Positions 8,915 through 32,150 are shown, counted from the stretch's first letter. The stretch is 64,000 bases of DNA from Minisyncoccia bacterium (GCA_038249055.1 JBBRWS010000002.1:14118-78117), one strand, 5' to 3'. The notes: generated from the letters alone by a model not told the origin. A program made the numbers and translations.

Positions 8915-8915
8915 A

Positions 8916-15570: not shown

Positions 15571-15574
15571 AAAA

Positions 15575-16177: not shown

Positions 16178-16399
16178 TATGTATGAGAATACTCATCCAT
16201 ATGCTCCTCGCTTGTCGTGAAAAATAGATTACCTACCTAAGGCGAATATTATCATATTTATGTTAATATGGCAATACTTGTCCCGTTAGAAGCCGTGGTC
16301 ATAGTTTGTAATGGGAAATTGATATATTATTGTTAATTATTAACTAAAAATCCGCAAATTGGTATTTATTAATTATGAACACGATTTGCTTTTAATGGG

Positions 16400-17434
16400 A
16401 TGCAAGAGAAGATAAAGATAGTTTATAAAAAGAGTGGACAAACACCCCTAGATTGTATAAATGAAGCCAAAAAAGCAAATTCAGATTTACTTCGTTTACC
16501 TTTAACTTATGCTGGCCGTTTAGACCCTCTAGCAGAGGGTGTTCTTGTTCTTTTAATTGGAGATGAATGTCTAAAAAAGGATGAATATTTAAAACTACCA
16601 AAAGAATATGAGGTTACTATTTTATTTGGTTTTTCTACTGATACATATGATTTAATGGGGAAGGTTATAGATATTAGCACTACGTCGGAATTGTTATTTA
16701 AAAGGTCCTCGGACGAGGGGGTAGAGGTCCAACCTTCAATCAGCAGATTGACCTCACGGGCAAATGTGACCCCAGAGGTTGTACCTCTACTAAGAAAAAA
16801 CGATGAAGCTTTAAATAATCATATTAATTTTGTTGCATCAAGTAAACAAGTGGAATCAAAAGATTCATTTAAAATGGTCTGGCCGAGCCTTAGAGGTACA
16901 ACATCCGAAGTCAGCTTGATGTTGGACCTCTTGGCGAGGAAATCCGAGGACCTTTTAAATGAATCTTTTGATGGAACGACTAAACAAATTAATAAATTTC
17001 TTCCACAATTTACAGGACGTATAACACAATCATATCCACCGTATTCTTCTCGTACGGTAAATGGTAAACCTCTTTATAAATGGGCAAGGGAAGGAAAGTT
17101 AAATGAAATTATAATTCCTTCTCATGATGTATTTGTTGAAAGTATTGAAATAATTAATGAAGGTCTTATTTCTGGAGAAGAATTTTTAAATAAAATAAAA
17201 AAAGATATAGCTCTTGTTTCTGGAGATTTTCGTCAAGAAGAAATTATTAATTTATGGAAAGAAACATTAAAAGACAAAAAAGAAGAACAATATAAAACTA
17301 TAACTTTAAAAATATCTTGTGGTAGTGGAGTGTATGTAAGGGGTATAGCTCACGAACTAGGCATAGCTTTAGGTGTTCCAGCTCTTGCTCTACATATAAA
17401 AAGAACAAAAGTAGGAGAATATAAAAATCAATAA
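16400..17434 (+). CDS. truB: tRNA pseudouridine(55) synthase TruB-like, carrying a ~85-aa in-frame insertion encoded by palindromic repeat elements
   Basis: The TruB motif AGRLDPLAEGVLVLLIG and ILFGFSTDTYD come before the insertion. QSYPPYSSRTVNGKPLYKWAREG comes after it. Confidence 0.75.
   Translation: MQEKIKIVYKKSGQTPLDCINEAKKANSDLLRLPLTYAGRLDPLAEGVLVLLIGDECLKKDEYLKLPKEYEVTILFGFSTDTYDLMGKVIDISTTSELLFKRSSDEGVEVQPSISRLTSRANVTPEVVPLLRKNDEALNNHINFVASSKQVESKDSFKMVWPSLRGTTSEVSLMLDLLARKSEDLLNESFDGTTKQINKFLPQFTGRITQSYPPYSSRTVNGKPLYKWAREGKLNEIIIPSHDVFVESIEIINEGLISGEEFLNKIKKDIALVSGDFRQEEIINLWKETLKDKKEEQYKTITLKISCGSGVYVRGIAHELGIALGVPALALHIKRTKVGEYKNQ
16700..16956. mobile_element. composite palindromic repeat element inserted in frame within truB (13-bp perfect terminal inverted repeat AAAAGGTCCTCGG)
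   Basis: AAAAGGTCCTCGGACGAGGGGG...TAGAGGTCCAACC...CAATCAGCAGATTGACCTCACGGG...TTAGAGGTACAAC..GTTGGACCTCT...CCGAGGACCTTTT. Confidence 0.7.
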
Positions 17435-17461
17435 AATAATCTTTGAAAAAATAGATAAGTA

Positions 17462-17580
17462 AAAAGTGGAATCAAAATAAGTATTTAAAATGGTCTGGCA
17501 TTGGTTCCCGTTCCCCTCGTCCGAGGACCTTTTAAATACTTATTTTGATGGAACGATTGATTAACTTATTAATTTCTTAG
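17462..17580. repeat. degenerate duplicate of truB-internal sequence (16848-17005) carrying a short copy of the AAAATGGTCTGG...CCGAGGACCTTTT element
   Basis: GTGGAATCAAAA..ATTTAAAATGGTCTGGC and TTTTGATGGAACGA occur both inside truB and downstream of its stop. Confidence 0.6.
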
Positions 17581-19009
17581 TTTCTTCAAAAAGTTCATCT
17601 ATTCTTTCTTTTGTTTTTGCTTCGCCTATTAGTCTTATAATGGGCTCAGTATTTGATGGACGTAAATGAATCCATGAACTATCAGAAAAATCTAAACGAA
17701 GTCCATCCAGTTCATTTATTTTTATTTCTTTAAAATGATTTTTTAATTTCTCATATATATCTTCAAGTTTTCCTCGTAGCTCGAGTTTATCTTTTCTAAC
17801 TTCATATTTAGGTAAAGAATTTACACATTCACTTATTGTTTGATTCCTTTCCGCTAATAATTCTAATATTAAAGACAAGCTCACAAAACTATCGCGTGCC
17901 ATATTAATAGTAGGGTATATAATTCCACCTCCACCTTCGCCTCCTATAATTGCATTATTTTCTATCATTCCAGCAACAACATTTGCTTCTCCAACTTTTG
18001 TTCTCACACACTCACTTTCATGTTTTGTTGCAATATCTTTGTTCATTTGAGATGTAGACATATTTATTACAACTTTATTTTTGGGATTTTTTGATAATAT
18101 TGCTTCTACTCCTAAAGCAACTGTATATTCTTCAGATATTACTTCACCATTCTCGTTTATTACCACTAGTCTGTCAGCATCAGGGTCATGAGCAAATCCA
18201 ATATCACATTTTTTTTCTTTTACTAGATTTGCGATATCTTGTAAATTTTCTTTAACGGGTTCTGGTTTATGAGCAAATTTACCATTTGGAATATTATTGA
18301 GTGGAATAAGTTCCACTCCTAGGTGTTCAAATAAATACGGGTCTAAAACACAAGCTGAAGCATTTATCATATCAACAGCAACTTTGAATTTGCGAAGACC
18401 AATAGCCTCTATATTTATATTTTGAAGAATTTGGTCCGCGTGTTCTTTTGGGAGATTAGAAATATTTCTTTTGAAGAGATAAGGTAAAATATCTCTTATC
18501 GAGGTCCTGCGCATGCTATTTAGTCGAGACGCAAAAATTTTTGCTAAAAAATAATTTGGTCCTAAATTAGAATTATACTTTTCAAGTTTTTGTTCATTAA
18601 TTTTTTTATAATTCTCTTTAATTATTTCAACTTCAGCCTCGCTCGTAAAAAGTGCTTTGTTAGTTACGAATTTTAACCCATTATATTCTCTAGGATTATG
18701 ACTTGCAGTTATTATTATTGCACTATCATATTTGTGTTTATGAACAGCAAAAAGAACTGTAGGGGTAGGTAATATATCTCCATCAATAAAATCTATACCC
18801 AGATCAACAAGTGTTTTTATTATATTTTTTTTTATTTCTGGCCCACTTTCTCGTCCATCACGACCAATAAGAATGGTTGGATTTTCATTTATATTTTCCT
18901 TAACAAATATTATAAAAGCTTTTGTATAATTTTTAACAATTTCGTGATTTAAACTTTCCCCCCATATACCTCTATATCCTGAAACTGTAAGTTTTGGTTC
19001 ATTTTGCAT
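17561..19009 (-). CDS. phosphohexomutase (phosphoglucomutase/phosphomannomutase/GlmM family)
   Basis: Active-site TASHNPREYNG and the metal-binding DPDADR motif. Confidence 0.8.
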   Translation of the reverse strand: MQNEPKLTVSGYRGIWGESLNHEIVKNYTKAFIIFVKENINENPTILIGRDGRESGPEIKKNIIKTLVDLGIDFIDGDILPTPTVLFAVHKHKYDSAIIITASHNPREYNGLKFVTNKALFTSEAEVEIIKENYKKINEQKLEKYNSNLGPNYFLAKIFASRLNSMRRTSIRDILPYLFKRNISNLPKEHADQILQNINIEAIGLRKFKVAVDMINASACVLDPYLFEHLGVELIPLNNIPNGKFAHKPEPVKENLQDIANLVKEKKCDIGFAHDPDADRLVVINENGEVISEEYTVALGVEAILSKNPKNKVVINMSTSQMNKDIATKHESECVRTKVGEANVVAGMIENNAIIGGEGGGGIIYPTINMARDSFVSLSLILELLAERNQTISECVNSLPKYEVRKDKLELRGKLEDIYEKLKNHFKEIKINELDGLRLDFSDSSWIHLRPSNTEPIIRLIGEAKTKERIDELFEETKKLIS

Positions 19010-19199
19010 AAATATATTTTATCATAAACAACAGTCCAATACCTCTTTTAATAAAATAATCAATTGTTTACGGTTCTATAATTTATTCCATTATTGGGTA
19101 AGTTATGATATTGCTAAATAATCTTTACTTTTGATATAATAAAGTAGCATAAGTTCTATGTGTCGAGTTATTAATTATTAATTTATTAGTTAAAAAATA

Positions 19200-19451
19200 A
19201 TGAAAATATTACACACAATTGCGTTTATATTAGTTATAGTTGGAGGTTTAAATTGGTTATTAGTTGGTTTGGTGGGTTGGGATGTAGGTATGATTTTTGG
19301 AGGACAAGGTGCTCTTATTTCAAAAATTGTATATATTCTAGTTGGTTTATCATCCGTATTTTTAGTTTTTTCTCACAAGAAAGATTGTAAGCAGTGTGAA
19401 GTATCAACACCTATGGCTGCTCCTAGTACTCCAGCAAGTACACCCATGTAA
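19200..19451 (+). CDS. small membrane protein, DUF378-like
   Basis: FILVIVGGLNWLLVGLVGWDVG pattern. 83 aa with two TM segments. Confidence 0.5.
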   Translation: MKILHTIAFILVIVGGLNWLLVGLVGWDVGMIFGGQGALISKIVYILVGLSSVFLVFSHKKDCKQCEVSTPMAAPSTPASTPM

Positions 19452-19463
19452 TTTGTTTTTTAT

Positions 19464-19498
19464 AAAACACCCGAAAGTTTTACTCTCGGGTGTTTTTA
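19464..19498 (+). terminator. intrinsic terminator (CACCCGAAAG..CTCTCGGGTG + T-run)
   Basis: Seen directly in the sequence. Confidence 0.7.
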
Positions 19499-19553
19499 AT
19501 TGTGATTAGTATTTTAAATATATTTTTTTTGTTATTTATAGTATAATTAGAAT

Positions 19554-20315
19554 ATGGAAACATTAATAATACCGTTAGCAATTTTAGTTTTTTTTATTAT
19601 AATTATTGGTTTGAGAGTTGTGAATCAGTATGATCGTGGAGTTGTTCTTACGTTTGGAAAATTTACAGGGACAAAAGGTCCTGGATTAACATGGATTTTT
19701 CCTGGAATTCAAAACATGACAAAGGTTGATTTACGTATAACTACCACAGATATTCCCCAGCAAGAAGTTATTACAAAAGATAACGTTCCTGTAGGAATAA
19801 ATGCGGTTGTATATTTTCAAGTTCAATCAGCAGAGAAAGCAATATTAAATATTAAAGATTATACTTTGGCTGTTTCTCAGTATGCTCAAGCCGCACTCAG
19901 AGATGTTATTGGTGGTATCGAACTTGATAAATTACTTTCAGAGAGAGAGCAGATTTCAGAAGAAATTCAAAAAATAGTTGTACCTGCTACAGAAACTTGG
20001 GGTATTTCAGTAACTGATATAAAAATTCAAGACATAGAACTTCCAGCAGATATGAAGAGAGTTATGGCTAAACAAGCTGAGTCCGAGCGTGAACGCAGAG
20101 CTATCATTATCCGAGCTCAAGGTGAATTTGAGGCTTCACAGAAGCTTGCTGAAGCCGCTGGTGTTCTTGCCGGAACTCCTGGAGGAATGTCTATGCGTAC
20201 ATTGCAAACTATTGAAAAAATAAATCCAGACCCATCAAAGACTGTTATTTTTGCTTTACCAGTTGAGTTTTTTGAAGGTGTAAAAAGTCTTACAAATTAT
20301 CTAGACAAGAAGTAA
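19554..20315 (+). CDS. SPFH/band-7 (stomatin/prohibitin-like) membrane protein
   Basis: N-terminal TM followed by the SPFH core (NAVVYFQV...RAQGEFEASQKLAEAA). Confidence 0.8.
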   Translation: METLIIPLAILVFFIIIIGLRVVNQYDRGVVLTFGKFTGTKGPGLTWIFPGIQNMTKVDLRITTTDIPQQEVITKDNVPVGINAVVYFQVQSAEKAILNIKDYTLAVSQYAQAALRDVIGGIELDKLLSEREQISEEIQKIVVPATETWGISVTDIKIQDIELPADMKRVMAKQAESERERRAIIIRAQGEFEASQKLAEAAGVLAGTPGGMSMRTLQTIEKINPDPSKTVIFALPVEFFEGVKSLTNYLDKK

Positions 20316-20321
20316 TAATAT

Positions 20322-20585
20322 ATGAAAGATGAGGCGACTTTTCTAGTTGAAGATGTATTTTTTATACCAAGTAAAGGTACTATAGTTGTAGGTAAATTAA
20401 CTGATGGTTTTCTTAAAAAAGGAATGAAAACCAATATTAATGGAAAAGAAAGTGAATTATTTTCAATTGAATCACAAAATAAATTACTTGAATCTCTAAA
20501 TTCAATTGGAGTAATTGCAGGATTACTTTTAAGTAATATTGATATAAATGATGTGAAAAAAGGTGATAGTTACTTTTTTGAGTAG
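20322..20585 (+). CDS. small beta-barrel protein resembling EF-Tu domain 2 / NfeD-type OB-fold, partner of the SPFH gene
   Basis: VEDVFFIPSKGTIVVGKLTDGFLKKG resembles the EF-Tu domain-II signature. It is translationally coupled to the stomatin gene. Confidence 0.35.
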   Translation: MKDEATFLVEDVFFIPSKGTIVVGKLTDGFLKKGMKTNINGKESELFSIESQNKLLESLNSIGVIAGLLLSNIDINDVKKGDSYFFE

Positions 20586-20610
20586 AAAAAACGACTCCCT
20601 GTTAGATAAT

Positions 20611-20668
20611 AAAAAAAATAGTAGAGGTTGGACGTCTTCCGTAGATGTACAACCTCTACTATTTTTTT
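20611..20668. terminator. repeat-family hairpin acting as a bidirectional terminator (A-run, TAGAGGTTGGACGTC..GTACAACCTCTA, T-run)
   Basis: Lies between convergent genes. Confidence 0.65.
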
Positions 20669-21482
20669 ATTTCATTTCTTTTAAAAATCCTTCTACTAAG
20701 GCGATTGTGTCAGTACTTTTTTGTAATACTGATTTCCAAACTACAACAATATCAGCATCATTAAAAATTGAACGCTGTACTTCGCGTACAGTATCACCTC
20801 CAGCAATAGATATCATTATGTTGTTGTAGCTTCCTTTTATTCGCCTGATTTCATGAAGGGGGATTTGTTTTTCTTTATTGAATTTTTCCTCGTCTACTCC
20901 TCTGTGGATTATAACAACTGAAGGGGCTTTTTTTAGTGAACGTAGTACAGAGAGAGGATATTCAACATTCATCATATCTATCATTGCATCCATTCCGTAC
21001 TCATCACATTTTTGAATAAAAGAATTTAATGTTTCTATCGGAGCAGTTCCTAGGGCGATGGCAGCACTTGCTCCACCACGATATGCAATCCCTACTTCGG
21101 TTTCACCTCTATCCATTGTTTTCAAATCAGCTACGATATAAGGAAATATCCCCGAATTATTTGGAATAATTATATTTTGATTTTCAGTTGTTTCTACCTG
21201 CAGATTAGATAGTCCTTTAAAAAGTAATGATAATATTCCAGTTGGATTGGGGGTTGCGATATTGGTTCCTAGTCCAAATAAATGCATTTCATAATATTGT
21301 CTTATCTGTCTTATTCCTTCTTCACCATATCTTTTTATAAATGGGGTACCTGCTTCTATTATAATACGGTCACTTTTTGGAAGACTAAAAATTATTTCAC
21401 GAGCATCAGAAAGTGTTCCGTTTAAGGCTACTTGTAAATAATGTTTTTTCGGATTTAATTTATGATTATTTATCTTTTTCAT
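20667..21482 (-). CDS. OMP-decarboxylase/3-hexulose-6-phosphate-synthase family TIM-barrel protein
   Basis: LQVALNG...EAGTPFIKRYG resembles the HPS/KGPDC N-terminal motif. 271 aa, longer than a canonical HPS. Confidence 0.4.
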   Translation of the reverse strand: MKKINNHKLNPKKHYLQVALNGTLSDAREIIFSLPKSDRIIIEAGTPFIKRYGEEGIRQIRQYYEMHLFGLGTNIATPNPTGILSLLFKGLSNLQVETTENQNIIIPNNSGIFPYIVADLKTMDRGETEVGIAYRGGASAAIALGTAPIETLNSFIQKCDEYGMDAMIDMMNVEYPLSVLRSLKKAPSVVIIHRGVDEEKFNKEKQIPLHEIRRIKGSYNNIMISIAGGDTVREVQRSIFNDADIVVVWKSVLQKSTDTIALVEGFLKEMK

Positions 21483-21537
21483 ATACTTAAACAGTATACT
21501 AAATTTTTATGTTTTAGATAAGATAAAATTCCTCATG

Positions 21538-21566
21538 ATTGACAATTCGTGCATCTATGGTAATAT
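21538..21566 (+). promoter_or_regulatory. sigma70-type promoter TTGACA-17-TAATAT
   Basis: TTGACAATTCGTGCATCTATGGTAATAT. The -10 box abuts the first ATG of the track ORF. Confidence 0.5.
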
Positions 21567-21602
21567 ATGAAGAAGTGCTCTAAATCAATAAAATCTATTA
21601 AG

Positions 21603-22121
21603 ATGAAAAAAGGTAATGCATTGCAGTTCTCTGCAGATGGAACTGAGTTTGTTTTTTTGTTTTCAAGTGGCATCGAGAGTGCTGCTTTCACATCAAAAAA
21701 AACGGGATTCGCTGCTGTAACGGATTTAGCCCAAAAAGGCAAAATCAGTGTTGAAGAATTTTCTAAATTCAGAGACGAAATTCTGGATGCAGAAAATTTG
21801 GTTTGGGAAGATTCTGAGCCAGAAAGAATTAGTTTTCTCGGTCTTCTCATTGGGATGGCGATGTCTTCCTCGGGCTCTTCCATTTTGGATCAAATGCACG
21901 CACCAGAAGAACCTGTAACGATTGCATATTTAAAGATGTGTGATTGTGGTGGTTCTCACGGGAGAATTTATTGCAAGACGGCGTATACCGGCCGACTTGA
22001 TTCAAAAGGAGAGGCCTCTGTCTATCTTAATGAATTGAAAAAAAAAGGGCTTGTTGATGACGTTGAATTCGAAAAAGTAAAATCCGAAATTGAAAATTCC
22101 GGATTGGACTTGGATGAATAA
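21603..22121 (+). CDS. hypothetical protein (start moved to second ATG downstream of the promoter)
   Basis: ORF 21567..22121 in the track. The first ATG overlaps the -10 box. Confidence 0.4.
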   Translation: MKKGNALQFSADGTEFVFLFSSGIESAAFTSKKTGFAAVTDLAQKGKISVEEFSKFRDEILDAENLVWEDSEPERISFLGLLIGMAMSSSGSSILDQMHAPEEPVTIAYLKMCDCGGSHGRIYCKTAYTGRLDSKGEASVYLNELKKKGLVDDVEFEKVKSEIENSGLDLDE

Positions 22122-22260
22122 TCTAATTTACGAAATCCCTTTCTAACTAAAATGAGCAGCTCCATAATTTGGGGCTGCTTTTTTTATGCGGGGAGACAAA
22201 ATAAAATCCACAATCTCTTTCGAAATTATGGATTCTAGTTATAACGCCCTATTAATTAAT

Positions 22261-22647
22261 TTAAGCGTGTTTAGGGTTTTTGTAGATAAGTATGTTCATT
22301 CCCTGTACATATATTGGAATTACTAAAGCAAATAAAATATAACTGTTAGCTCCGAATATATTGAAGCACATGTTTACTTTATCAGGATTAAATAATTCAT
22401 CAATTCCGTAAATTCTTGCCCATACTAATTCAGTGATAGGGGTAAGAAATGCGAGGAATGACAATGGATAGCTCAAGTTGAACTTATCTTTGTCTTTTAG
22501 GACAATTAATACTCCACTAAATAGTGGTAAAAGGTACATGAACCAACCAAAATGGTAGTCCAAATAGGGGAATATTAAAGCTAGTGAAATCCACACAGCT
22601 ATAATTGTTAAGTAATACCCCTTAAAGGCTAATAATTTTTTCGTCAT
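22261..22647 (-). CDS. hypothetical membrane protein
   Basis: 128 aa, multi-TM. Confidence 0.4.
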   Translation of the reverse strand: MTKKLLAFKGYYLTIIAVWISLALIFPYLDYHFGWFMYLLPLFSGVLIVLKDKDKFNLSYPLSFLAFLTPITELVWARIYGIDELFNPDKVNMCFNIFGANSYILFALVIPIYVQGMNILIYKNPKHA

Positions 22648-22859
22648 CTATTAATGATTTATCCCGAATAGGCGGGGACCTGTTTTTAGAAACTTTAAAT
22701 TAAATTGATAAATAAGTCAATATCATTTTTAATATATGAAAATTTATATTTAACTCAACAAAAAAGTTCCCGTCAAAATTTTGACGGGAACCTCTGCAAT
22801 AATTTAATTTGCTATTTTTTACTGGTAGTACAAGAGGTTTTTTAAATTTAAGACGAAAA

Positions 22860-23126
22860 TTATTTTAAAACAATTGAGGTTAAAAAATAAAAAATCGAAT
22901 ATACTACAAGCATTGAAATCATAACACTCAGTTTTTGAATAAAGTTTAAAAATTTTACTTTATCCGAAAAAAGGATGATCATGACTCCAAAGCAAAATGC
23001 TGTGAAATCAAAAAATGAAAACAATGAGCCGTTGGCTCCTATTATTTCTGGTGAATGTTTCAAAAATGAAAGAATACCAGAAATTGAAATAAGCAGAAAA
23101 CCAAAATAGAAATAAAAATTTTTCAT
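22860..23126 (-). CDS. hypothetical membrane protein
   Basis: 88 aa with two or three TM segments. A minus-strand terminator GTTCCCGTCAAAATTTTGACGGGAAC + T-run lies at 22765-22795. Confidence 0.35.
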   Translation of the reverse strand: MKNFYFYFGFLLISISGILSFLKHSPEIIGANGSLFSFFDFTAFCFGVMIILFSDKVKFLNFIQKLSVMISMLVVYSIFYFLTSIVLK

Positions 23127-23158
23127 ATCAGAAAATTTAATAAATGTTTAAAAAAATT

Positions 23159-23761
23159 TTACTTTTTACTTTTTACATTAGCTTCAAGTTCATCAAGAAT
23201 TTTCTTTTTAGCAAGCACTTCTCCTTTAGCTTTAATAAGAGTTTCTTCAATTTCTAAAACTCTTTTAATACCTTGTAAAAAAAAGGGATCAAATATCAAG
23301 ACTACTGAAACAGAATCTATGCAATACTTACCTAATGCGAATTCTTTTCTTTCATAAAATGTTTTTTCCAAATCATATTTTATATACCCCTCTAGAGATT
23401 CCTCTAATGATTTTGATCTTTTGTAAACATCGAAAGAATTTAATTCAATGAGCGTCATTGAAGGGGGAAGTAAAGATCGACTTAAAATAATTCGTTTTAC
23501 TTTTTCACTTTCAGGTAAATAGTATAATCCAAGCCAAAATTTTTCAGGTGGATTAATTCCAAAAAATTCATCAACAGAGATTCCTTTTTTTGAGTAGAAT
23601 ACATTTATTGATGCCGTAATTATATGGGCATCATTTGTTTTATAGCAATCCATCCTTCCAATCTCTTGTGTTCTGCCTAAATATTTTACTCTAATTACAA
23701 TCAGAGTAATAATTGAAATTGCTAAAACAATCAATAAAAAGTAACTGATAATTTTTTTCAT
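23159..23761 (-). CDS. hypothetical protein with N-terminal TM anchor
   Basis: 200 aa. I see no motif. Confidence 0.4.
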   Translation of the reverse strand: MKKIISYFLLIVLAISIITLIVIRVKYLGRTQEIGRMDCYKTNDAHIITASINVFYSKKGISVDEFFGINPPEKFWLGLYYLPESEKVKRIILSRSLLPPSMTLIELNSFDVYKRSKSLEESLEGYIKYDLEKTFYERKEFALGKYCIDSVSVVLIFDPFFLQGIKRVLEIEETLIKAKGEVLAKKKILDELEANVKSKK

Positions 23762-23993
23762 AATGATTTTGTTTTTAAGTGTATATAAGATTTTCTAAAC
23801 ATCCATTTTAATAGAGGCTTAGAAAATCTTATATATTTAAATTCAAAATTCTGTATTTCAAAGAACTATCTTTATATTATAGCATATTATAGTTAAAAGT
23901 CAATGAATCTAAATTAGATAAAAGATTTTAAAAATAACAAAACCCATCTTTTTCAAGACAGGTTTTATTTTATTAGTGCGTATATTGTTTATC

Positions 23994-25406
23994 CTAGAAT
24001 TTATATTCCGGAATATCTTTTAGTTCCCCACGCAAAAAGGGAAATAAGAGACCATTGTCGTATGCCAACAAGAGTTTGTCGGCAAATTTTTCTAAGCCAT
24101 TGTTTCCTTCATTACTGGAAAGCATTGTGTTGCTATTTTTTCCTTTATACCAATAGGTATTATAGGAAAAATTTTTCAACAAGTGCTTATTGAGTTTCAG
24201 GTGATTGGCTGTATCGGCGATACAGTCCAATAACATAGGGAATACCCCAGTTCCAGACCACCTGCCGAGCACAAACATATGGGGCAGTCCTTTCAAGAAT
24301 CCGACCATAATTGGGTCGATGTTACGGAGCCAATTTTGGTCGCTCCATTCCTTTGAAGCTGCGTCATGATATGGGGTCATAATGACCACATAATCAAACA
24401 GCTCTTTTGCCTGTCTCATTATCCTCACCAAGTTGGGAGGCATAATGTCCTTACCACGAAACTGTGATAAAGGTCGGGTTCTCCTGTTGTATGTCTGGTA
24501 AAACCAGGCGTACTCAGTTGATCCGATAGAATCAGCAAAAAAATTCACTGCACTGTCCGGGGAAGGATCCTCGGCTCTGGTATTGTCCGCTATTTCTTCT
24601 TTGGCACTTACGTACCAAACTGGAAAAGCAAAACTCAACTCAGGTAAATGCCTGATGTCAATCACTGAACTGTGATTAAGCAGACCATTTTTGTGCATTA
24701 AGGTAAAAGCTTCTCTTACGCTTAAGAACTGCGAGTATTCCTTTTTCAATGAATCGCTCTGGCCAGAAAGGCCATTTTCATTGTACAAAGCAATTGTCTC
24801 ATCAATCATAGCCTGTTCTGCAACCTTATCAACATCGTCCATAATGGAGCATTTAACTCCTAACGGGCTTAACATTGAGAACGTTTTCTCCACGAAAGTT
24901 TCAGCCATCCGGTTTATATCTTCCGGATTGTAGCCACCACCCTGACTCAATACCCAACCAATCTGCTGAATAAATTCAGCAAGGGGTTTGTTTTCGAGAG
25001 CTTTAGAGATATCACCTTCAGCGATAATCTTTTTCAACTGGTGGTAAGGGCTAATTGCCCTGGAGAGTCCAGCTATTGCTGTGGTACGCCCTTCTGGTGT
25101 ATTCACATCAAGACCGGTTTCAATCATTACAATTTTTTCTGTTCTGAACTTCCCAACTCTCTGAGGGTCGTGGTTTAATTCTGAAAATTGGACCAACTGT
25201 CCAACTTTGAATTCGGAACTTTCGGAAACTGGGCAAAAAATGTCCCCATTGGTTCCGATGCTTTCATAAGCACGTTTAACCATTCCGATAAATACATATC
25301 CAGTATGTACTGAGACAATCTCACCAGTGTACACGGTTCCAACTATTACTTCTGGATTTTCAATAACTAGAATTTCTTCTTGGTCATTCTTTAAATCATT
25401 TGTCAT
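23994..25406 (-). CDS. hypothetical 470-aa protein, GC content visibly higher than neighbours
   Basis: Long ORF with distinct composition. No recognisable catalytic motif. Confidence 0.5.
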   Translation of the reverse strand: MTNDLKNDQEEILVIENPEVIVGTVYTGEIVSVHTGYVFIGMVKRAYESIGTNGDIFCPVSESSEFKVGQLVQFSELNHDPQRVGKFRTEKIVMIETGLDVNTPEGRTTAIAGLSRAISPYHQLKKIIAEGDISKALENKPLAEFIQQIGWVLSQGGGYNPEDINRMAETFVEKTFSMLSPLGVKCSIMDDVDKVAEQAMIDETIALYNENGLSGQSDSLKKEYSQFLSVREAFTLMHKNGLLNHSSVIDIRHLPELSFAFPVWYVSAKEEIADNTRAEDPSPDSAVNFFADSIGSTEYAWFYQTYNRRTRPLSQFRGKDIMPPNLVRIMRQAKELFDYVVIMTPYHDAASKEWSDQNWLRNIDPIMVGFLKGLPHMFVLGRWSGTGVFPMLLDCIADTANHLKLNKHLLKNFSYNTYWYKGKNSNTMLSSNEGNNGLEKFADKLLLAYDNGLLFPFLRGELKDIPEYKF

Positions 25407-25674
25407 TTTCAGCAGTTTTAAATTTTTACAGTTAATTAAAATACAGTTTATTTATGAATCGGTTTTTACTAGGGGAATAACAGCAACTCTTTTAGAAGTT
25501 ATTCTTTTACCTTGTAATTTGTCAAACAACGATTTCATGTATATTATACATCATTAATATAATAAAGTCAATAGTCTATATTAAAATTTAATTTAACATA
25601 GTAAAAAATATTTAAGCTTATAATTTAAAAGACTGAATAATGATTGTCATTATTCAGTCTTTTTTGCTTATTTT

Positions 25675-26064
25675 TTAGCCTCTATCTTTTTCTTCTGCCA
25701 TTTTTTCAAGTTTAACTTGAAAGCTACTTTTTTTAACGTCCTCTTTTTTAGCTGAATTTTCTTCTGCCATTTTTTGTAATCTGGATTGAAAATTACTTTG
25801 CGTTTTATCTATATCTAGTTCGTTTCTCTCTTTGAGTTGTTTTGGAAGATTAACACAAACAAAATATAGAATATAAGGCCAGAGGAAGAAAAATAAATAT
25901 CTCAAATTTGCTGGGACTCCAGCAGGAAAATTGGCATTCACTTTGTCTCTAGTGATGTAGTTCCTTTTCAATATTGATATTACAAGTTCGAATATCAAAA
26001 GAAGAAAAAAACCAATTACCATATACCAACCGATACAGGATAATACAATTTTGATTGTTTCCAT
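25675..26064 (-). CDS. hypothetical membrane protein with C-terminal tandem repeat (FQSRLQKMAEEN / FQVKLEKMAEEK)
   Basis: 129 aa. Confidence 0.4.
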   Translation of the reverse strand: METIKIVLSCIGWYMVIGFFLLLIFELVISILKRNYITRDKVNANFPAGVPANLRYLFFFLWPYILYFVCVNLPKQLKERNELDIDKTQSNFQSRLQKMAEENSAKKEDVKKSSFQVKLEKMAEEKDRG

Positions 26065-26213
26065 TATTGTGATATTAACCCTGAAAGGCGGGTCACCTAT
26101 GTTTAATTTAAGGTTACCATGAACGGGGAGGAAGTCAATGAGAGATATTTATCGATAAACATAAAGAGGGGTCTTTGATATAAAGACCCCTCTTTTACAA
26201 ATTTGGAAAATTT

Positions 26214-26681
26214 TTAATTAAGACCAGACAATGTCTCGCCAGGGATAAAAGTGTCTTCTGAATTTTGCAACGCAATTATTTTGAATAGAGGGCGAATTGC
26301 CAAGACTGACCTTTGTTGAGGGAAACGTAGATGTATTAAAATCCACATTAATTCTTTGCATGCGTCGGCTTCTTTTTCAAGACGATTGAATTTTTCAAAA
26401 TAATGAAAGTTTTGTTCAGTTGAAATAATTTTAGATAGTGGTTTAATCCAATCCACATTATGTTCATCTTCAAGATTTTTTCCAATGATATTTTCAAACA
26501 TCATTCTTATTTCTTGGTTTTTTAGGATAGATAAAGTATGCAGTCTTTTTTCAAGCTCTGACATTTCACCTATTTCTATTCCGGATAGAATTTCATCTGT
26601 GTCTGGTACAACCTCAAGTTCATCACAGTAAGCCAAGGCTTCCTCAATGATTGTTCCGCTTATTAATTCAATATTTTCCAT
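26214..26681 (-). CDS. hypothetical protein
   Basis: 155 aa. A terminator hairpin AAAGAGGGGTCTTTGATATAAAGACCCCTCTTTT lies at 26162-26196. Confidence 0.4.
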   Translation of the reverse strand: MENIELISGTIIEEALAYCDELEVVPDTDEILSGIEIGEMSELEKRLHTLSILKNQEIRMMFENIIGKNLEDEHNVDWIKPLSKIISTEQNFHYFEKFNRLEKEADACKELMWILIHLRFPQQRSVLAIRPLFKIIALQNSEDTFIPGETLSGLN

Positions 26682-26798
26682 GTATTCTGTTTTTAGTACG
26701 TATTTAATTTGAGATTAACATAAGAGGGGGAGAAGTCAAATAGAGAGGTTTTGAGACAGTAAAAAGAAAACCCGCAAGCGAGTTTCTTCGCGTGCGGG

Positions 26799-27062
26799 TT
26801 ATGCCTTTAAGCTTTTGTAATATTTATAGAAACCTTTTAATCTTATAAAGTAAAAAATTTCTACAAAACACAGTATTATTATCATTACAACAAAGGGAAT
26901 ATTGAAACCCACTTTGTTGTTTGAACTAAAGACGACGATTAATGGTACTGTAATTATCCCAATACTGTATAAAATCATTAAACCCAGATTCCATCTTTTT
27001 TGGGTTTCTTTTGATACATTGTCGTCTGTTAAACAATCCGAAATACTTTTTTTATTTTTCAT
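26799..27062 (-). CDS. hypothetical small membrane protein
   Basis: 87 aa with two TM segments. Confidence 0.35.
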   Translation of the reverse strand: MKNKKSISDCLTDDNVSKETQKRWNLGLMILYSIGIITVPLIVVFSSNNKVGFNIPFVVMIIILCFVEIFYFIRLKGFYKYYKSLKA

Positions 27063-27504
27063 GATCTAATTTTAGTTTATTGAATTTTCTTTACCACTCT
27101 AAATAGGGGAACAAAGAAAATTCAATAAATTAAATTTAACCAAAATTTTAAAGAGCGCACTCCTTATATGATAGCATGTTTTGTGGTAAAAGTCAAGGGA
27201 GAGGTGGCGGGATATCTTCCTCTACGAATGCGGGAACCACGAGTACGTGTTCGGTCACTCATAATTTTCTGGTGAAAATTTGTGCGACCCTCAATCAGTA
27301 GATTGACCTCACGGGCGACTCGCACCGTCTTTCGATTCCCGCGGGACCGCGAGTACGCTTATCGAACACTACGTTTTCAGGTACTTTTCGATTTGGTTAA
27401 CACCAAATAGCGAAAAGTCTTTCGATTTCCGCACTCGAGCAAAGCAGTTTGCTCGCTCATCTCCACATATGAAAAAACATCCTGTAAAGGATGTTTTTTC
27501 ATAT

Positions 27505-27896
27505 GTGGAGATGGCGGGAATCGAACCCGCGTGCAAAGAGAACTCTTATAGAAATCTACATGTTTAGTATATCCAATTGGGTTTAAATGTTTATTCTAGA
27601 GGACATACAAGAAAAATAAACACCGAGCTTTTAATTGTCGGACTTTACATCAAGCGGTTGTAAAATCGTAACCAGATAAATTATGCCCACTCTTTATATC
27701 TGATGTCAAAAGAGTAGACACCCGCGAGGCCTAATTAGGCGAATGCGGGAGCAAAATTACCGAACCCAAAAGAGTAAGGTGATTTTACTGAAGCGACTTT
27801 GTTTGCACTTAGTCTTTTCCAAGAAGTTTTAAAAGATTCCTGAGTACTTTACATGCATATATAAGAGGATTCACCTTGTCGAAGCCGATCATCCCC
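27505..27896 (-). ncRNA. ssrA: tmRNA (SsrA)
   Basis: Minus-strand 5' end GGGGAUGAUCGGCUUCGACAAGG with a G3-U pair in the acceptor stem. 3' tRNA-like domain GCGGGUUCGAUUCCCGCCAUCUCCA. Candidate tag reading frame GCA AAC AAA GUC GCU UCA ... GCA UUC GCC UAA (ANKVASVKSPYSFGFGNFAPAFA). Adjacent to smpB. Confidence 0.8.
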
Positions 27897-27989
27897 CTAT
27901 GAAATTTTTAAGAAAAATTTCAATTAATAATTACTGATTACCAATGACTAATTAAGAATTCAAAATTAGTAATCAGTAATTGTTAATTA

Positions 27990-28436
27990 TTAATTAATTT
28001 TATACTCTCTTCTTATTTCTCTATCAACATCTCGTTTTTTGATAGTTTCTCTTTTATCAAAAACTTTTTTTCCTCTTGCGACTGCGACAGATACTTTAAT
28101 ATAACGACCCTTACTATACAATGAAATAGGGATAAGAGTCAAACCTTTGATATCGTCCTTCTCTGCTAGCTTCTTGATTTCTTTTTTAGACAAAAGAAGT
28201 CTTCTATTTCTATCTGGGTCATACCCAGGGTTGGTGTTATTTTGTTGGTATGGAGGTATATGCATTCCTATAATAAATGCTTCTCCTCCACGAATAACGC
28301 AAAAGGCTGCGGTGATACTTCCTTGCCCTTTCTTTATTGATTTCACTTCAAATCCAGAAAGTTCGATACCTGCTTCAAAGGTTTCTTCTATACTGTAATT
28401 GAAATGTGCTTTTCTATTATCTATATATGTTGTCAC
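27990..28436 (-). CDS. smpB: SsrA-binding protein SmpB
   Basis: FNYSIEETFEAGIELSGFEVKS...RRLLLSKKEI. Sits immediately 5' of ssrA on the same strand. Confidence 0.9.
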   Translation of the reverse strand: MTTYIDNRKAHFNYSIEETFEAGIELSGFEVKSIKKGQGSITAAFCVIRGGEAFIIGMHIPPYQQNNTNPGYDPDRNRRLLLSKKEIKKLAEKDDIKGLTLIPISLYSKGRYIKVSVAVARGKKVFDKRETIKKRDVDREIRREYKIN

Positions 28437-28465: not shown

Positions 28466-29041
28466 ATGGTTTTAGAAATAAAACAAATTGACTATTTATT
28501 CCAAAGTAGTAATCTAAAAGAAAAACTTAACACTTGTACTATGAATTTAGAAACAGTTATCACAACAAGTGGCAAAACCATTGAAGTTGATATTTCAGAT
28601 GATGTTTGTCTCAAGTATGGATTTATCCATGATGATATCGGAATCTCTTTTACGGGATTGGATATCAGAATAAAAGGTGTTGGCCCTGATAATAACGGAG
28701 AAAAAGTTTTGTACTATGAAGTTCTTGCTCCTAAACTCGAAGGAAAAGTTTGCTGTTTTGAAAAGAAAGGGAACTTGCTCGACCTAGGTTTCAAGTTCAG
28801 CCGGCATCTTTTTCCGATTGAAAAAAGGTTCAAAAAAATTCCTGAAATTTTAATAAGGGATTGGAGAATCGAAATGGCCAAAAGAAATGCGATAAAAATA
28901 ATTGTATTTTATTGCAGTGATGAATTTAATTTTTTTCCTCATTATCTTCTTCCAGATGAAGATGAAGAAAAAATTAAAAAAATAATATCCCACACGGCAC
29001 CATGTTCTAGCCAGGGAGAAATAATTGAGCTAATTAATTAG
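28466..29041 (+). CDS. hypothetical protein
   Basis: 191 aa, Cys-containing. A terminator GCCCGCAAA..CGTTTGCGGG + T-run follows at 29042-29085. Confidence 0.4.
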   Translation: MVLEIKQIDYLFQSSNLKEKLNTCTMNLETVITTSGKTIEVDISDDVCLKYGFIHDDIGISFTGLDIRIKGVGPDNNGEKVLYYEVLAPKLEGKVCCFEKKGNLLDLGFKFSRHLFPIEKRFKKIPEILIRDWRIEMAKRNAIKIIVFYCSDEFNFFPHYLLPDEDEEKIKKIISHTAPCSSQGEIIELIN

Positions 29042-31343: not shown

Positions 31344-31464
31344 CAAATATAGTGTTTTTTCTGTAATATATGAATACCAACATATCCGCCCTTAGCTGTC
31401 TTGGTTCCTAAACAGTGGGTTTGATTGGTAAAAGAAAATTTTATTGTATTGTGAGTTTAACCAT

Positions 31465-31538
31465 CCGCCCTTAGCTCAGTTGGTTAGAGCACAGAGCTTA
31501 TACCTCTGGGGTCCTAGGTTCGAATCCTAGAGGGCGGA
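31465..31538 (+). tRNA. tRNA-Ile (anticodon UAU)
   Basis: Folded manually. Acceptor CCGCCCU/AGGGCGG, D-arm GCUC..GAGC, anticodon stem CAGAG/CUCUG with loop CUUAUAC, T-arm CUAGG-UUCGAAU-CCUAG, discriminator A. Terminator CAGGGGTTACCCTG + T7 at 31544-31572. Confidence 0.8.
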
Positions 31539-31574
31539 CAATTAAAAAAATCAGGGGTTACCCTGGTTTTTTTA

Positions 31575-32000
31575 ATTGTCCGCCCTAGCAAGCAAACTAC
31601 TTTGCTTGCGTCTAGGATTCGAAGACCTTGAGCATGTATCATGAAATTTTAATTTCAGGATACGCGAAAGGTGTACAGAATCTGTAAGATTCGAAAAGCG
31701 TAATCGCGGTCCTAGAGGGCCAGAGCGTCTAGGATTCGAAAGACTTTTCATTATCAGCTTTGCTGATTGAAAAGTACCTGGCTACGTGGTAGCCGAAAAA
31801 TGTACTCATGGTCCTAGAGTATTATAAAAATAGAGGTTGGACGTCTCCCGTAGACGTACAACCTCTATTTTTATATGGTCCGCCCTAGCAAGCAAACTAC
31901 TTTGCTTGCGTCTAGGATTCGAAAACCTTTTCCTTGTGAGTGTACTCGCGAACGGAAAAGGTGTACTGGTCCAGTAAGGACCGAAAAGTGTACTCACGGT
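31575..32000. repeat. tRNA-Ile-adjacent repeat array: two copies of GTCCGCCCTAGCAAGCAAACTACTTTGCTTGCGTCTAGGATTCGAA plus GATTCGAAAGACTTTTC..GAAAAGT(G)TACTCAYGGTCCTAG modules
   Basis: Copies at 31575-31625 and 31868-31925. GGTCCTAGAG and GTCCGCCCT are inverted or partial copies of the tRNA 3' end (TCCTAGAGGGCGGAC). Confidence 0.7.
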
Positions 32001-32150
32001 CCTAGTGCATTTTATAAATTAGACTGCGAGGCGATTTAACCATTGACAATATGCATATAATTATGGTATAATAAAAATACAGTTTTATTACTTTGTATAT
32101 AAAGTATATAATCAAGGTAATTAAAAATTAATAATTAACTCATCTTATTT

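What the first reader, a model, noticed from the sequence alone, without database searches (positions are those of the whole stretch)
22200..27500. ssrA-adjacent block of seven uncharacterised minus-strand genes, including a GC-elevated gene for a 470-aa protein
The tmRNA gene is on the minus strand with its 3' end at 27505. Immediately beyond that end lie degenerate tmRNA 3'-end repeats.

A run of seven minus-strand hypothetical genes follows, from 26799 back to 22261. Most encode small membrane proteins.

One of them, 23994..25406, encodes a 470-aa protein with clearly higher GC and no motif I can place.

tmRNA 3' ends are classic integration sites for genomic islands, so this is the most likely place in the window for an accessory system of unknown function. 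A defence or host-interaction role is an open possibility.

A GGGGAG(G)AAGTCAA(A)TGAGAGA motif recurs upstream of two of these genes (26125 and 26722).
Basis: partly seen in the sequence, partly recalled or inferred. Interest (0 to 1): 0.7.

Follow-up and report, generated by a model that had tools for sequence, protein, structure and literature searches.

The report
Gene-shuffling hotspot beside the tmRNA gene
The seven unknown genes next to the tmRNA gene are not one system but a patchwork of independently transcribed, swapped-in genes at a recombination hotspot of an uncultured ultra-small (CPR) bacterium, and the "tmRNA repeats" at its edge belong to a previously undescribed tRNA-like element that follows tRNA and tmRNA genes across this lineage.

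Summary
tmRNA is at 27505-27896 (-). Seven minus-strand ORFs lie at the stated coordinates, and five have TM-like segments. None matches Pfam, NCBIfam, PHROGs or PADLOC.

In relatives, the interval between ssrA and a conserved DUF378-phosphoglucomutase backbone varies from 0.4 to more than 8 kb with mostly unique content. It holds R-M islands, a serine recombinase and a GIY-YIG islet. This window's block has no integrase, no distal att repeat and no defence signature.

The block is about six monocistronic promoter-ORF-terminator cassettes of mixed origin. The 155- and 129-aa cassettes recur, rearranged, in the closest relatives. The 200-aa protein is an orphan.

The 470-aa gene has foreign codon usage (GC3 0.42 against 0.20, z 4.8). 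It belongs to a solitary, repeatedly transferred Patescibacteria family. It has an N-terminal cold-shock-like barrel and a conserved C-terminal domain with no structural match.

The "tmRNA 3'-end repeats" are tRNA-like trailer units copied from the upstream gene's own 3' end. They follow tmRNA, tRNA-Ser and tRNA-Ile in many Paceibacteria, show strong covariation, and bracket island insertions in relatives.

The parts
27505..27896 (-). ssrA (tmRNA) gene. CCA is not encoded.
   Evidence: ARAGORN; Rfam RF00023, 126.8 bits.
27458..27513 (.). Perfect 26-bp palindrome with a 4-nt loop. One arm contains the tmRNA acceptor 3' strand (CATCTCCAC). The core is an A-tract/stem/T-tract bidirectional terminator. 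The distal arm is the 'anti-acceptor' start of trailer unit 1.
   Evidence: the repeat finder I4, 100% complementary. The same design follows tRNA-Ile and tRNA-Ser and RNA genes in relatives.
27341..27468 (-). Trailer unit 1. In order: anti-acceptor GTGGAGATG, AGC, 9-bp hairpin with CTGC loop, GAGT, anti-T-arm GCGGAAATCGAA, AGAC, variable hairpin, GTACTCGCGGT, CCCGC.
   Evidence: Covariance model R1 hit at 27421-27468, 67.1 bits. 86% identical over 77 nt to a unit after tRNA-Ser at 41394-41470.
27198..27342 (-). Trailer unit 2, without the CTGC hairpin. In order: GCGGGAATCGAAAGAC, a long hairpin that shares a 26-nt module with dispersed palindromes, GTACTCGTGGT, then the degenerate direct copy ATCCCGCCACCTCTCC.
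   Evidence: Exact inverted 12-mer of the tmRNA T-loop/T-stem. Homologous units occur in L010, L011, L039, L016 and L036.
27054..27196 (-). Promoter (TTGACT, 17 nt, TATCAT) and AT-rich hairpin leader of the 87-aa gene. This is a portable module that precedes unrelated ORFs in relatives.
   Evidence: Promoter scan. 73-85% nucleotide matches upstream of a 199-aa ORF (L095), a 73-aa ORF (L093) and a 141-aa ORF (L088).
26799..27062 (-). 87-aa protein with two TM segments. Singleton. Own terminator at 26786-26767.
26155..26746 (-).
   Evidence: Motif. Small family of 9 clusters. 91% nucleotide identity to L093 over exactly 26739-26155.
25618..26145 (-).
   Evidence: Motif is conserved at the cassette start in L093, L095 and L096. 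84% nucleotide identity over 26144-25618.
23936..25571 (-). 470-aa cassette: promoter at 25571-25543 (TTGACT, 17 nt, TATAAT), ORF at 23994-25406, terminator at 23969-23936. Domains: N-terminal cold-shock-like barrel (about residues 25-95), helical domain (104-240), conserved alpha/beta domain (248-470).
22860..23903 (-). Promoter at 23903-23876, then the 200-aa orphan (23159-23761, N-terminal anchor) and the 88-aa multi-TM ORF (22860-23126) 32 nt downstream. Probably one transcript.
   Evidence: (the only hit is itself).
22202..22720 (-). Promoter-like site at 22720-22692, the 128-aa ORF with four TM segments (22261-22647, GC3 0.344, z 3.2) and the terminator at 22237-22202.

Best explanation
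The stretch between the ssrA trailer (about 27200) and the semi-conserved genes that start with the 184-aa gene at 22121 is a recombination and insertion hotspot in a Paceibacteria (Patescibacteria/CPR) genome. It is not a single island or a multi-gene system.

Shown:
- It holds about six independent transcription units, each with a sigma-70-type promoter and a hairpin terminator.
- The units have different histories. The 155- and 129-aa cassettes are shared with the closest relatives but sit in another order there. The 87-, 200-, 88- and 128-aa genes are orphans or singletons.
- The 470-aa gene has foreign codon usage. It belongs to a solitary gene family found only in Patescibacteria (where organisms are named) that has moved repeatedly between genomes of different GC content.

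Inferred:
- The 470-aa protein is a cytoplasmic enzyme that binds nucleic acid. Its N-terminal cold-shock-like OB barrel (motifs GYVFIG and DIFCP) would hold single-stranded RNA or DNA.
- Its conserved C-terminal alpha/beta domain, rich in invariant D/H/E/R/T residues (FD..TPYHD..E.W..RNIDP..GRWSGTG..ADT..H), would carry out a hydrolytic or modifying reaction.
- The small membrane proteins are lineage-specific envelope accessories.

Shown for the edge of the block:
- The tmRNA-like repeats are two copies of a lineage-wide, structurally constrained tRNA-like 'trailer unit'. Each unit is built from the complement and a direct copy of the upstream RNA gene's own T-stem and acceptor 3' end.

Inferred from two relatives: integrative elements insert next to or between these units, so the essential RNA gene stays intact.
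For: Hotspot:
- ftsH-smpB-ssrA synteny is conserved, but none of the seven genes appears downstream of ssrA in any of the SmpB-anchored relatives.
- The ssrA-to-backbone distance runs from 357 nt (L026) to 8054 nt (window), with mostly unique ORFs.

Cassettes:
- Promoters and terminators are found per gene, with 19 terminator-like sites against 4.1 expected.
- Nucleotide similarity to L093, L095 and L096 is cassette-wise and starts at the promoter motif.
- Those relatives lack the 470-, 200-, 88-, 128- and 87-aa genes and carry a different gene set instead.

470-aa gene:
- 58 full-length homologs down to 32% identity, and 214 clusters at 50% identity.
- No conserved neighbour in 28 loci.
- GC3 z = +4.8 with normal GC at positions 1+2, while the GC-richest background genes, which have high GC1+2, have low GC3.
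- Family GC3 deviates from host neighbours in both directions (+5.6 in L110, -5.2 in L004) and matches the host elsewhere.
- AF2 model has pLDDT 82.6 and pTM 0.72.

Trailer units:
- 41 model hits in 1.43 Mb, all in Paceibacteria loci.
- 28 of 38 lie 16-43 nt after a same-strand tmRNA or tRNA gene.
- The hairpin is 99.4% paired in 36 distinct sequences, with 9 of 9 pairs showing double changes and a covariation score of 1.01 against 0.22.
- Unit flanks match the unit's own gene (score 18.8 against 10.6, own better in 33 of 34).
- The L016 and L036 islands are bracketed by units.
Against: - No recombination mechanism for shuffling the cassettes inside the block was identified, and no repeats flank the cassettes.
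- All comparison genomes are metagenome assemblies, often fragmentary, so absence of a gene is shown only for the locus, not for the whole genome.
- The enzymatic role of the 470-aa C-terminal domain rests only on the conservation pattern. No fold or family match supports it.
- In some genomes the 470-aa gene sits among housekeeping genes with matched codon usage (L002, L091). That is also compatible with an old, vertically kept gene.
- Whether the trailer units act as DNA sites or as RNA is unresolved. The sense/antisense stability test gave n = 8, p = 0.31.
Confidence: 0.7

Rival explanations
1. The block is one genomic island that integrated at the tmRNA 3' end through an integrase, and it has since lost the integrase and its distal att site.
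For: It sits directly 3' of ssrA. Integrase-type elements use this site in relatives: a serine recombinase in L023, LSR-type junctions in L036, and an 18-nt direct repeat around a GIY-YIG islet in L049. Several block genes have raised GC3.
Against: There is no recombinase domain in any ORF. No same-orientation tmRNA 3' copy exceeds chance between 15000 and 27504. Composition within the block is heterogeneous, with GC3 from 0.18 to 0.42. The 155- and 129-aa cassettes occur in relatives without the other genes and in a different order, which means piecemeal assembly.
Confidence: 0.12
2. The seven genes form one co-functional accessory system, for example a membrane-associated defence or host-interaction module with the 470-aa protein as effector.
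For: The genes share a strand and are close together. Five are membrane proteins and one is a large soluble protein. The locus type carries R-M systems in relatives.
Against: Promoters and terminators are separate. None of the other six genes accompanies the 470-aa family in any of the 28 loci carrying a member. The 155-aa family occurs with different neighbours. There are no PADLOC hits for the block or for 50 family members. The 200-aa protein has no homolog at all.
Confidence: 0.04
3. The 470-aa protein is a lineage-specific housekeeping factor, for example in RNA metabolism, inherited vertically. Its GC here would be a local quirk.
For: It is conserved at full length with 21 invariant residues. 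In L002, L089, L091 and L004 it sits among housekeeping and DNA-repair genes (polA, uvrB, RF-1, aspS, recO), with host-like GC3 in L002, L091 and L007. A 71% homolog lies in the same ssrA-DUF378 interval in L088.
Against: It is absent from that interval in every SmpB-anchored relative and from the sampled parts of that interval in L093, L095 and L096, whose records do not reach ssrA. There are only 214 clusters at 50% identity among 1.84 billion representatives. Context differs in nearly every genome. GC3 departs from the host by +5.6 to -5.2 sd in different genomes, and the GC-richest background genes here (high GC1+2) have low GC3.
Confidence: 0.14
4. The tmRNA-like repeats and trailer units are functionless scars (decayed att sites) left by past integrations.
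For: Direct copies of tRNA or tmRNA 3' ends are the expected displaced fragments of island integration (PMC4383910). Islands in L016, L036 and L049 are bounded by such copies.
Against: Scars would not keep a 9-bp hairpin with a conserved CTGC loop through 13 or more different compensated stem sequences. They would not keep a fixed position 16-43 nt after the gene in about 28 loci, or fold with z scores from -3 to -9. The inverted copy is not predicted by simple att duplication. No unit was found in 70 viral contigs that carry the same tmRNA 3' end.
Confidence: 0.2

Closest known systems
Genomic islands integrated in tRNA/tmRNA genes (Islander/TIGER type)
   Same: The position is immediately 3' of ssrA. 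Content varies between related genomes and composition is partly foreign. Relatives show genuine integrative elements at the same site, with a recombinase (L023) or 18-nt direct repeats of the tmRNA 3' end (L049). The principle that the regenerated target and a displaced fragment mark the island ends is described in PMC4383910.
   Different: This window's block has no integrase and no displaced tmRNA fragment at its far end. It is a mosaic of single-gene cassettes with different histories. Insertions in relatives lie next to or between trailer units downstream of the gene, not inside ssrA.
Integron-like gene-cassette arrays and defence-island hotspots
   Same: It is a row of short single-gene units in one orientation at a fixed chromosomal site. 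The units are reshuffled between close relatives, and R-M systems occupy the same site in other genomes.
   Different: No attC-like repeats lie between the cassettes and there is no integron integrase. Every cassette has its own promoter and terminator, whereas integron cassettes are typically promoterless (from established knowledge).
E. coli tyrT operon trailer repeats (rtT RNA; Bosl and Kersten 1991, cited in PMC2965389; the repeat structure is from my own knowledge)
   Same: Repeated units downstream of a tRNA gene each contain a copy of that tRNA's 3'-terminal nucleotides.
   Different: There is no sequence or Rfam match. The units here also carry an inverted copy of the 3' end and a covarying CTGC-loop hairpin. 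They occur after tmRNA, tRNA-Ser and tRNA-Ile, and they are conserved across a whole CPR lineage.
Cold-shock domain / S1-like OB-fold nucleic-acid-binding proteins (CspA/CspB, Unr, Lin28, CRHSP-24)
   Different: The Pfam CSD/S1 models do not match. About 375 further residues (a helical and an alpha/beta domain) have no relative in the PDB, BFVD, Pfam, NCBIfam, PHROGs or PADLOC. One subfamily lacks the barrel altogether.

Membership tests
tRNA/tmRNA-integrated genomic island | Lies directly at the 3' end of a tRNA or tmRNA gene | tested here: met
   The block starts about 300 nt after the ssrA 3' end at 27505.
tRNA/tmRNA-integrated genomic island | Encodes an integrase or recombinase | tested here: not met
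   No recombinase domain in any of the seven ORFs or the flanking ORFs (Pfam, NCBIfam, PHROGs).
tRNA/tmRNA-integrated genomic island | A displaced 3' fragment of the target gene (direct repeat) marks the distal end | tested here: not met
   Local alignment of the last 41 nt of tmRNA against 15000-27504 found no same-orientation hit above the shuffled maximum.
tRNA/tmRNA-integrated genomic island | Variable presence among related genomes, with atypical composition | tested here: met
   Absent from the ssrA flank of every SmpB-anchored relative. GC3 z scores are up to 4.8.
Known anti-phage defence systems (PADLOC-DB v2) | At least one protein matches a defence-system HMM | tested here: not met
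   No hit for any of the seven block proteins or the 184-aa flanking ORF; the only weak match (E 0.022) was to the separate 191-aa ORF at 28466-29041, outside the block. Among 50 members of the 470-aa family there were only isolated hits at E of 0.03 or weaker in single members.
Prophage or phage remnant | Matches to phage protein families | tested here: not met
   PHROGs gave no hit better than E = 0.002, and those were to unknown-function families. BFVD fold search gave no hit at E <= 0.001.
Integron cassette array | attC-like imperfect palindromes of a common type between cassettes, plus an integron integrase | tested here: not met
   The inter-cassette hairpins are unrelated terminators and no shared repeat family was found. 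No integrase was found.
Cold-shock domain proteins | Five-stranded OB barrel structurally superposable on CSD | tested here: met
Cold-shock domain proteins | Sequence match to the Pfam CSD or S1 models | tested here: not met
   No Pfam hit at E <= 1 for the window protein, and none among 50 family members at E <= 0.1.
Rfam RNA families (including tRNA-like and rtT) | Covariance-model match to the trailer units | tested here: not met
   At E <= 10 (tmRNA trailer) and E <= 1 (tRNA-Ile and tRNA-Ser trailers), only tmRNA or tRNA and spurious, far-below-cut-off matches (mostly hairpin/miRNA families) appear in 26900-28000, 31400-32100 and 41050-41720.
   TTGACT, 16 nt, TGn-TAAYCT lies about 60-80 nt upstream of the 155- and 129-aa start codons and is conserved in relatives. 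Activity was not tested.

The most novel reading that the evidence does not exclude
The trailer units are a new class of structured genetic element. Each is a tRNA-like minihelix mimic copied from the 3' end of the tRNA or tmRNA gene it follows: an acceptor-like stem, a covarying CTGC-loop hairpin, and a T-stem-like helix that encloses variable hairpins. In this reading the units serve as surrogate attachment sites. Together with the gene end they form a long palindrome, and integrative elements (serine-recombinase islands, R-M islands, small islets) land there and not inside the essential RNA gene. That would create and maintain the hypervariable hotspot in which this seven-gene block sits. 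A related possibility is that the units are processed, tRNA-like RNAs.
Probability: 0.3. Interest if true: 0.75.

Novelty: new variant of a known kind. Interest (0 to 1): 0.55.

Why it matters
CPR/Patescibacteria have tiny genomes and are uncultured, and very little is known about how they gain and lose accessory genes. This locus shows three things.

1. There is a defined, lineage-wide hotspot next to ssrA where single-gene cassettes and R-M islands turn over between close relatives.
2. A solitary protein family that appears restricted to Patescibacteria (about 214 clusters at 50% identity) moves between genomes on its own. It combines a cold-shock-like domain with a conserved domain of unknown fold, which makes it a clear target for biochemical work.
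3. A structured element not found in Rfam or in my literature searches copies the 3' end of the adjacent tRNA or tmRNA gene and brackets insertions. If it acts as a landing pad or as a processed RNA, it would be a new way of linking RNA genes to genome plasticity. It would also help annotate island boundaries in CPR metagenome assemblies.

Tried and rejected
1. Same-orientation att repeat of the tmRNA 3' end at the far side of the block: none above chance.
2. The GC-rich 27160-27460 stretch as an integrase pseudogene: tblastn with the C5 'proteins' matched only because a conserved noncoding sequence was being translated.
3. Known RNA family for the GC-rich trailers: none.
4. Conserved partner genes of the 470-aa family: none in 28 loci.
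5. Remote family signal: Pfam and PADLOC on all 50 aligned members gave only isolated weak hits. A profile search against PDB sequences gave only weak matches to helical repeats and FliG.
7. Trailer units as phage attP: the exact-pattern scan of IMG/VR found 0, and the unit model found 0 hits in 70 viral loci carrying the same tmRNA 3' end. One search was an accidental reverse-complement duplicate.
8. RNA-level against DNA-level role by sense/antisense stability and G-U counts: inconclusive, n = 8.
9. A bias check on the hairpin harvest failed because the anchor pattern was too strict, giving 1 match. The later model-based set of 36 sequences replaces it, but an alignment fitted to a model leans towards that model's structure.
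10. DDE-transposase, PD-(D/E)xK, HEPN, NTase and Walker-A readings of the 470-aa motifs were considered by eye and dropped, because motif order and residues do not fit (inference only). No terminal inverted repeats flank the gene.
11. The 87-aa gene's terminator (26780-26800) resembles an inverted tmRNA segment (21 of 22 positions with one gap), but the score equals the shuffled maximum and is treated as chance.

Full report
**Observation.** The window is AT-rich (about 32% GC). It comes from a Patescibacteria/CPR bacterium close to metagenome-assembled genomes labelled Paceibacterota or Nomurabacteria, with SmpB 89-92% identical. ARAGORN and Rfam place ssrA at 27505-27896 on the minus strand. 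Five have TM-like segments, and the 155- and 470-aa proteins are soluble and acidic. None of the seven has a significant (at or above cut-off) Pfam, NCBIfam, PHROGs or PADLOC hit.

The 470-aa gene is GC-elevated. The excess sits at third codon positions: GC3 is 0.421 against 0.196 +/- 0.047 in 57 other ORFs (z 4.8), with normal GC at positions 1+2 and a codon-usage score at z -4.9. The GC-richest background genes, which have high GC1+2, have low GC3. So the elevation reflects foreign codon usage, not amino-acid conservation or expression level. The 128-aa gene (z 3.2) and the 87-aa gene (z 2.0) are also raised, while the 200-aa gene is not. The block is therefore compositionally heterogeneous.

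**The motif.** GGGGAG(G)AAGTCAA(A)TGAGAGA, read on the coding strand, is TCTCTCATTGACTTCCTCCCC at 26145 and TCTCTATTTGACTTCTCCCCC at 26746. That is 3 hits in the window, counting a weaker one at 27202, against 0.02 in shuffles. Each copy has a TTGACT -35 box, a 16-nt C-rich spacer and an extended -10 (TGG-TAACCT or TGT-TAATCT), about 60-80 nt upstream of the 129- and 155-aa start codons. It is retained at the start of the 129-aa cassette in L093, L095 and L096. It is a sigma-70-type promoter, and the two copies are about 74% identical over 47 nt (my count from the sequences).

Similar TTGACT promoters precede the 87-, 470-, 200- and 128-aa genes. Hairpin terminators follow most genes, with 19 terminator-like sites against 4.1 expected. 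Only the 88-aa ORF lacks its own promoter; it starts 32 nt after the 200-aa stop. The block is therefore about six separate transcription units.

**Comparative context.** Using SmpB as an anchor I fetched 80 loci. In the Paceibacteria among them, the upstream order tRNA-Ser, tRNA-Ser, tRNA-Ile, ftsH, smpB, ssrA is conserved. Downstream there is a conserved backbone: DUF378, phosphoglucomutase, TruB, IF3, L35, L20 and a beta-CASP RNase. The distance from ssrA to that backbone is very variable:
- 357-490 nt in L026, L038 and L039
- 1.1-3.7 kb in L010, L008, L029 and L024
- 6.6-8.1 kb in L015, L036, L056 and the window

The ORFs in between are almost all unique to one locus. None of the seven block genes occurs there in any SmpB-anchored relative.

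Relatives carry the following at this site:
- a large serine recombinase whose ORF overlaps the ssrA 3' end (L023)
- a C5-cytosine methylase plus a GHKL ATPase (L016)
- an island with an XRE-type HTH protein, two DNA methylases and a LexA-like repressor (L036)
- an AAA_15/AAA_21 ATPase (L037)
- a 540-nt islet encoding a GIY-YIG protein, flanked by an exact 18-nt direct repeat of the tmRNA 3' end (L049)

**History of the block's genes.** The 200-aa protein has no homolog among 5.8 billion clusters. The 87- and 128-aa proteins are singletons at 90% identity, and the exact 88-aa sequence is not in the collection. The 155-aa protein has a family of nine clusters.

Its closest members lie in genomes (L093, L095, L096) that also have the 129-aa gene (78%), the 184-aa gene (70%), the OMP-decarboxylase-like gene (83%) and Band_7 (91%). 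The order there differs, and a Pkinase-like/adenylosuccinate-synthetase gene set takes the place of the 470-, 200-, 88-, 128- and 87-aa genes.

Nucleotide similarity is cassette-wise. Window 26739-26155 is 91% identical to L093, and 26144-25618 is 84% identical to L093, L095 and L096. Both stretches run from the promoter motif to the terminator. The promoter and leader of the 87-aa gene (27196-27054) precedes unrelated ORFs in L095, L093 and L088. The block is thus assembled piecemeal from promoter-ORF-terminator cassettes. No repeats that could mediate this were found between the cassettes.

**The 470-aa protein: distribution.** It has 58 full-length homologs down to 32% identity, all from CPR assemblies where a name exists (Falkowbacteria, Paceibacterota) and none with a Pfam domain. 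A profile search of 1.84 billion representatives finds 214 clusters, including a subfamily of about 370-400 aa that lacks the N-terminal domain.

In 28 loci that carry a member there is no recurrent neighbour. Contexts range from polA/uvrABC (L002), polA (L089), aspS and a giant kinase (L004) and RF-1 (L091) to hypothetical-gene regions. In L088 a 71% homolog sits in the same ssrA-side interval just before DUF378-PGM, but with other neighbours.

The family's GC3 deviates from its local neighbours by +5.6 sd (L110), +2.3 to +2.5 sd (L006, L089, L109, L116) and -5.2 sd (L004), and matches them in L002, L091 and L007. Deviation in both directions indicates repeated horizontal transfer, not a property of the gene itself.

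My committed reading, which is an inference, is a solitary, mobile, cytoplasmic enzyme that binds single-stranded nucleic acid through the barrel and acts on it with the C-terminal domain. I put about 0.35 on that. Whether it serves defence, addiction or RNA metabolism cannot be decided from these data.

**The 'tmRNA 3'-end repeats'.** No same-orientation copy of the tmRNA 3' end beats chance anywhere in 15000-27504, so nothing bounds the block as an island. The GC-rich 27198-27505 stretch does, however, contain inverted copies of the tmRNA 3' end:
- the distal arm of a perfect 26-bp palindrome that includes the acceptor 3' strand
- GCGGAAATCGAA and GCGGGAATCGAA, which are complements of the T-loop plus T-stem

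Pieces of this stretch recur after tRNA-Ser(ACT) at 41237-41610 and tRNA-Ile(TAT) at 31576-32010 in the same orientation as the gene, and after ssrA in many relatives.

Reading these regions side by side gives a common unit, in this order:
1. the gene's 3' end
2. a bidirectional terminator
3. the complement of the acceptor 3' strand
4. AGC
5. a 9-bp hairpin with a CTGC loop
6. GYGT
7. the complement of the T-stem 3' strand plus T-loop
8. AGAC
9. one or two variable hairpins
10. GTACTCNNGGT
11. a direct copy of the T-stem 3' strand and, often, the acceptor 3' strand

The gene-specific parts follow the adjacent gene: GCGGG/CCCGC for tmRNA, GTGAG/CTCAC for tRNA-Ser and CTAGG/CCTAG for tRNA-Ile.

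**Tests of the trailer unit.**
- A covariance model of the 5' half finds 41 hits in 1.43 Mb. All are in Paceibacteria loci, with none in the non-CPR controls or in other CPR lineages.
- 34 of 38 have a same-strand RNA gene upstream, and 28 of those lie 16-43 nt from its end. The other four sit where ARAGORN missed a tmRNA.
- Unit flanks match the unit's own gene far better than genes of another type (18.8 against 10.6, own better in 33 of 34).
- In 36 distinct sequences the hairpin is 99.4% paired, all nine pairs show double changes, and the covariation score is 1.01 against 0.22 in shuffles and 0.07-0.25 when the register is slid (seed set). The caveat is that the seed was chosen for pairing and the larger alignment is fitted to the model.
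- Whole units fold with z scores from -3 to -9 into an acceptor-like closing stem, the CUGC hairpin and a T-stem-like helix that encloses the variable hairpins.
- No Rfam family matches, and I found no description in the literature.

The nearest known analogue is the rtT repeat region of the E. coli tyrT operon, mentioned in PMC2965389. Its repeat structure is from my own knowledge.

**Link between the units and insertions.**
- In L016 the 5.2-kb methylase/ATPase island lies between a complete unit ending GGTCCCGCCA and a second unit ending GGTCCCGCCACC.
- In L036 the 7-kb island abuts the tmRNA 3' end on one side, with the same GC-rich sequence that forms the recombinase gene end in L023. On the other side it abuts the host's inverted copy, GAGATGGCGGAAATCGAA.

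Elements therefore insert next to or between these copies, and ssrA stays intact. Whether the units act as DNA sites, for example as half-sites of a long palindromic attB, or as RNA is open. A strand-asymmetry test was inconclusive, and the units were not found in viral contigs.

**Verdict.** The finding is real, and its locus-level interpretation is partly right. It is an ssrA-adjacent hypervariable accessory region containing a horizontally acquired gene of unknown function. It is not a single island or a recognisable defence system. It is a mosaic of independent cassettes. The motif is a promoter. The tmRNA-like repeats belong to a conserved, apparently undescribed tRNA-like trailer element, which is the most novel feature in the interval. 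Overall this is a new variant of a known kind, and I score its interest at 0.55.

Noticed in passing
window 31540-32010 (+) and 41198-41610 (+): tRNA-Ile(TAT) and tRNA-Ser(ACT) are each followed by two or three trailer units of the same design as those after ssrA. After tRNA-Ser there are two exact 20-22-nt direct copies of its 3' end, at about 41329-41349 and 41588-41609. tRNA-Ser(GCT) at 40790-40879 (-) has none.
   Followed up: yes
window about 8912-9006 (-), 12821-12908 (+), 16720-16792 (-); also 31822-31878 and 41612-41668: A dispersed family of palindromic GC-rich repeats of about 70-90 nt. The ends are TAGAGGTTGGAC...GTCCAACCTCTA and the core is GCCCGTGAGGTCAATCTRCTGATTGA. They look REP- or MITE-like. 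A core fragment is embedded in tmRNA trailer unit 2 (27316-27291), and short versions form the terminators after the tRNA trailers.
   Followed up: partly
window 28466-29041 (+): An orphan 191-aa ORF (a singleton with no family hit) fills a 940-nt gap between smpB and ftsH. In most relatives these two genes are only about 90-420 nt apart, so this is a second small variable insertion.
   Followed up: partly
window 41111-41197 (+), and L011, L018, L019, L024 and others: A tRNA-Ser with anticodon ACT (A34) sits divergently next to tRNA-Ser(GCT) and is conserved across the relatives. Unmodified A34 is unusual in bacterial tRNAs other than tRNA-Arg(ACG) (my own knowledge).
   Followed up: no
window 27054-27196 (-); L095 9253-9408; L093 9104-9234; L088 2827-2881: The promoter and hairpin-containing leader of the 87-aa gene is a portable module found in front of unrelated small ORFs in other genomes. 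It may be a shared regulatory 5' UTR or a substrate for recombination.
   Followed up: partly
window 25688-25799 (-): The 129-aa gene contains a 43-nt direct repeat (79% identical, 69 nt apart). It encodes a repeated ..Q.(R/K)L(Q/E)KMAEE.. segment in the C-terminal tail.
   Followed up: no
L049 10875-11410; L016 11025-16180; L036 9820-16790; L023 10801-12183: Relatives carry distinct elements at the ssrA 3' end. L049 has a GIY-YIG islet between exact 18-nt tmRNA repeats. L016 has a Dcm plus GHKL-ATPase island. L036 has an island with an HTH protein, two methylases and a LexA-like repressor, plus remnants of a serine-recombinase-type junction. L023 has a large serine recombinase gene that overlaps the tmRNA end.
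   Followed up: yes
window 26780-26800: The terminator of the 87-aa gene resembles, in inverted orientation, the tmRNA segment just 5' of the T-loop (21 of 22 positions with one gap). The score equals the best shuffled score, so this may be chance.
   Followed up: partly
L007 1521-2864 and L104: In two loci a serine-recombinase-like ORF (Pfam Recombinase, weak) lies a few kb from a 470-aa family member. This is the only recurrent mobility-related neighbour seen.
   Followed up: no
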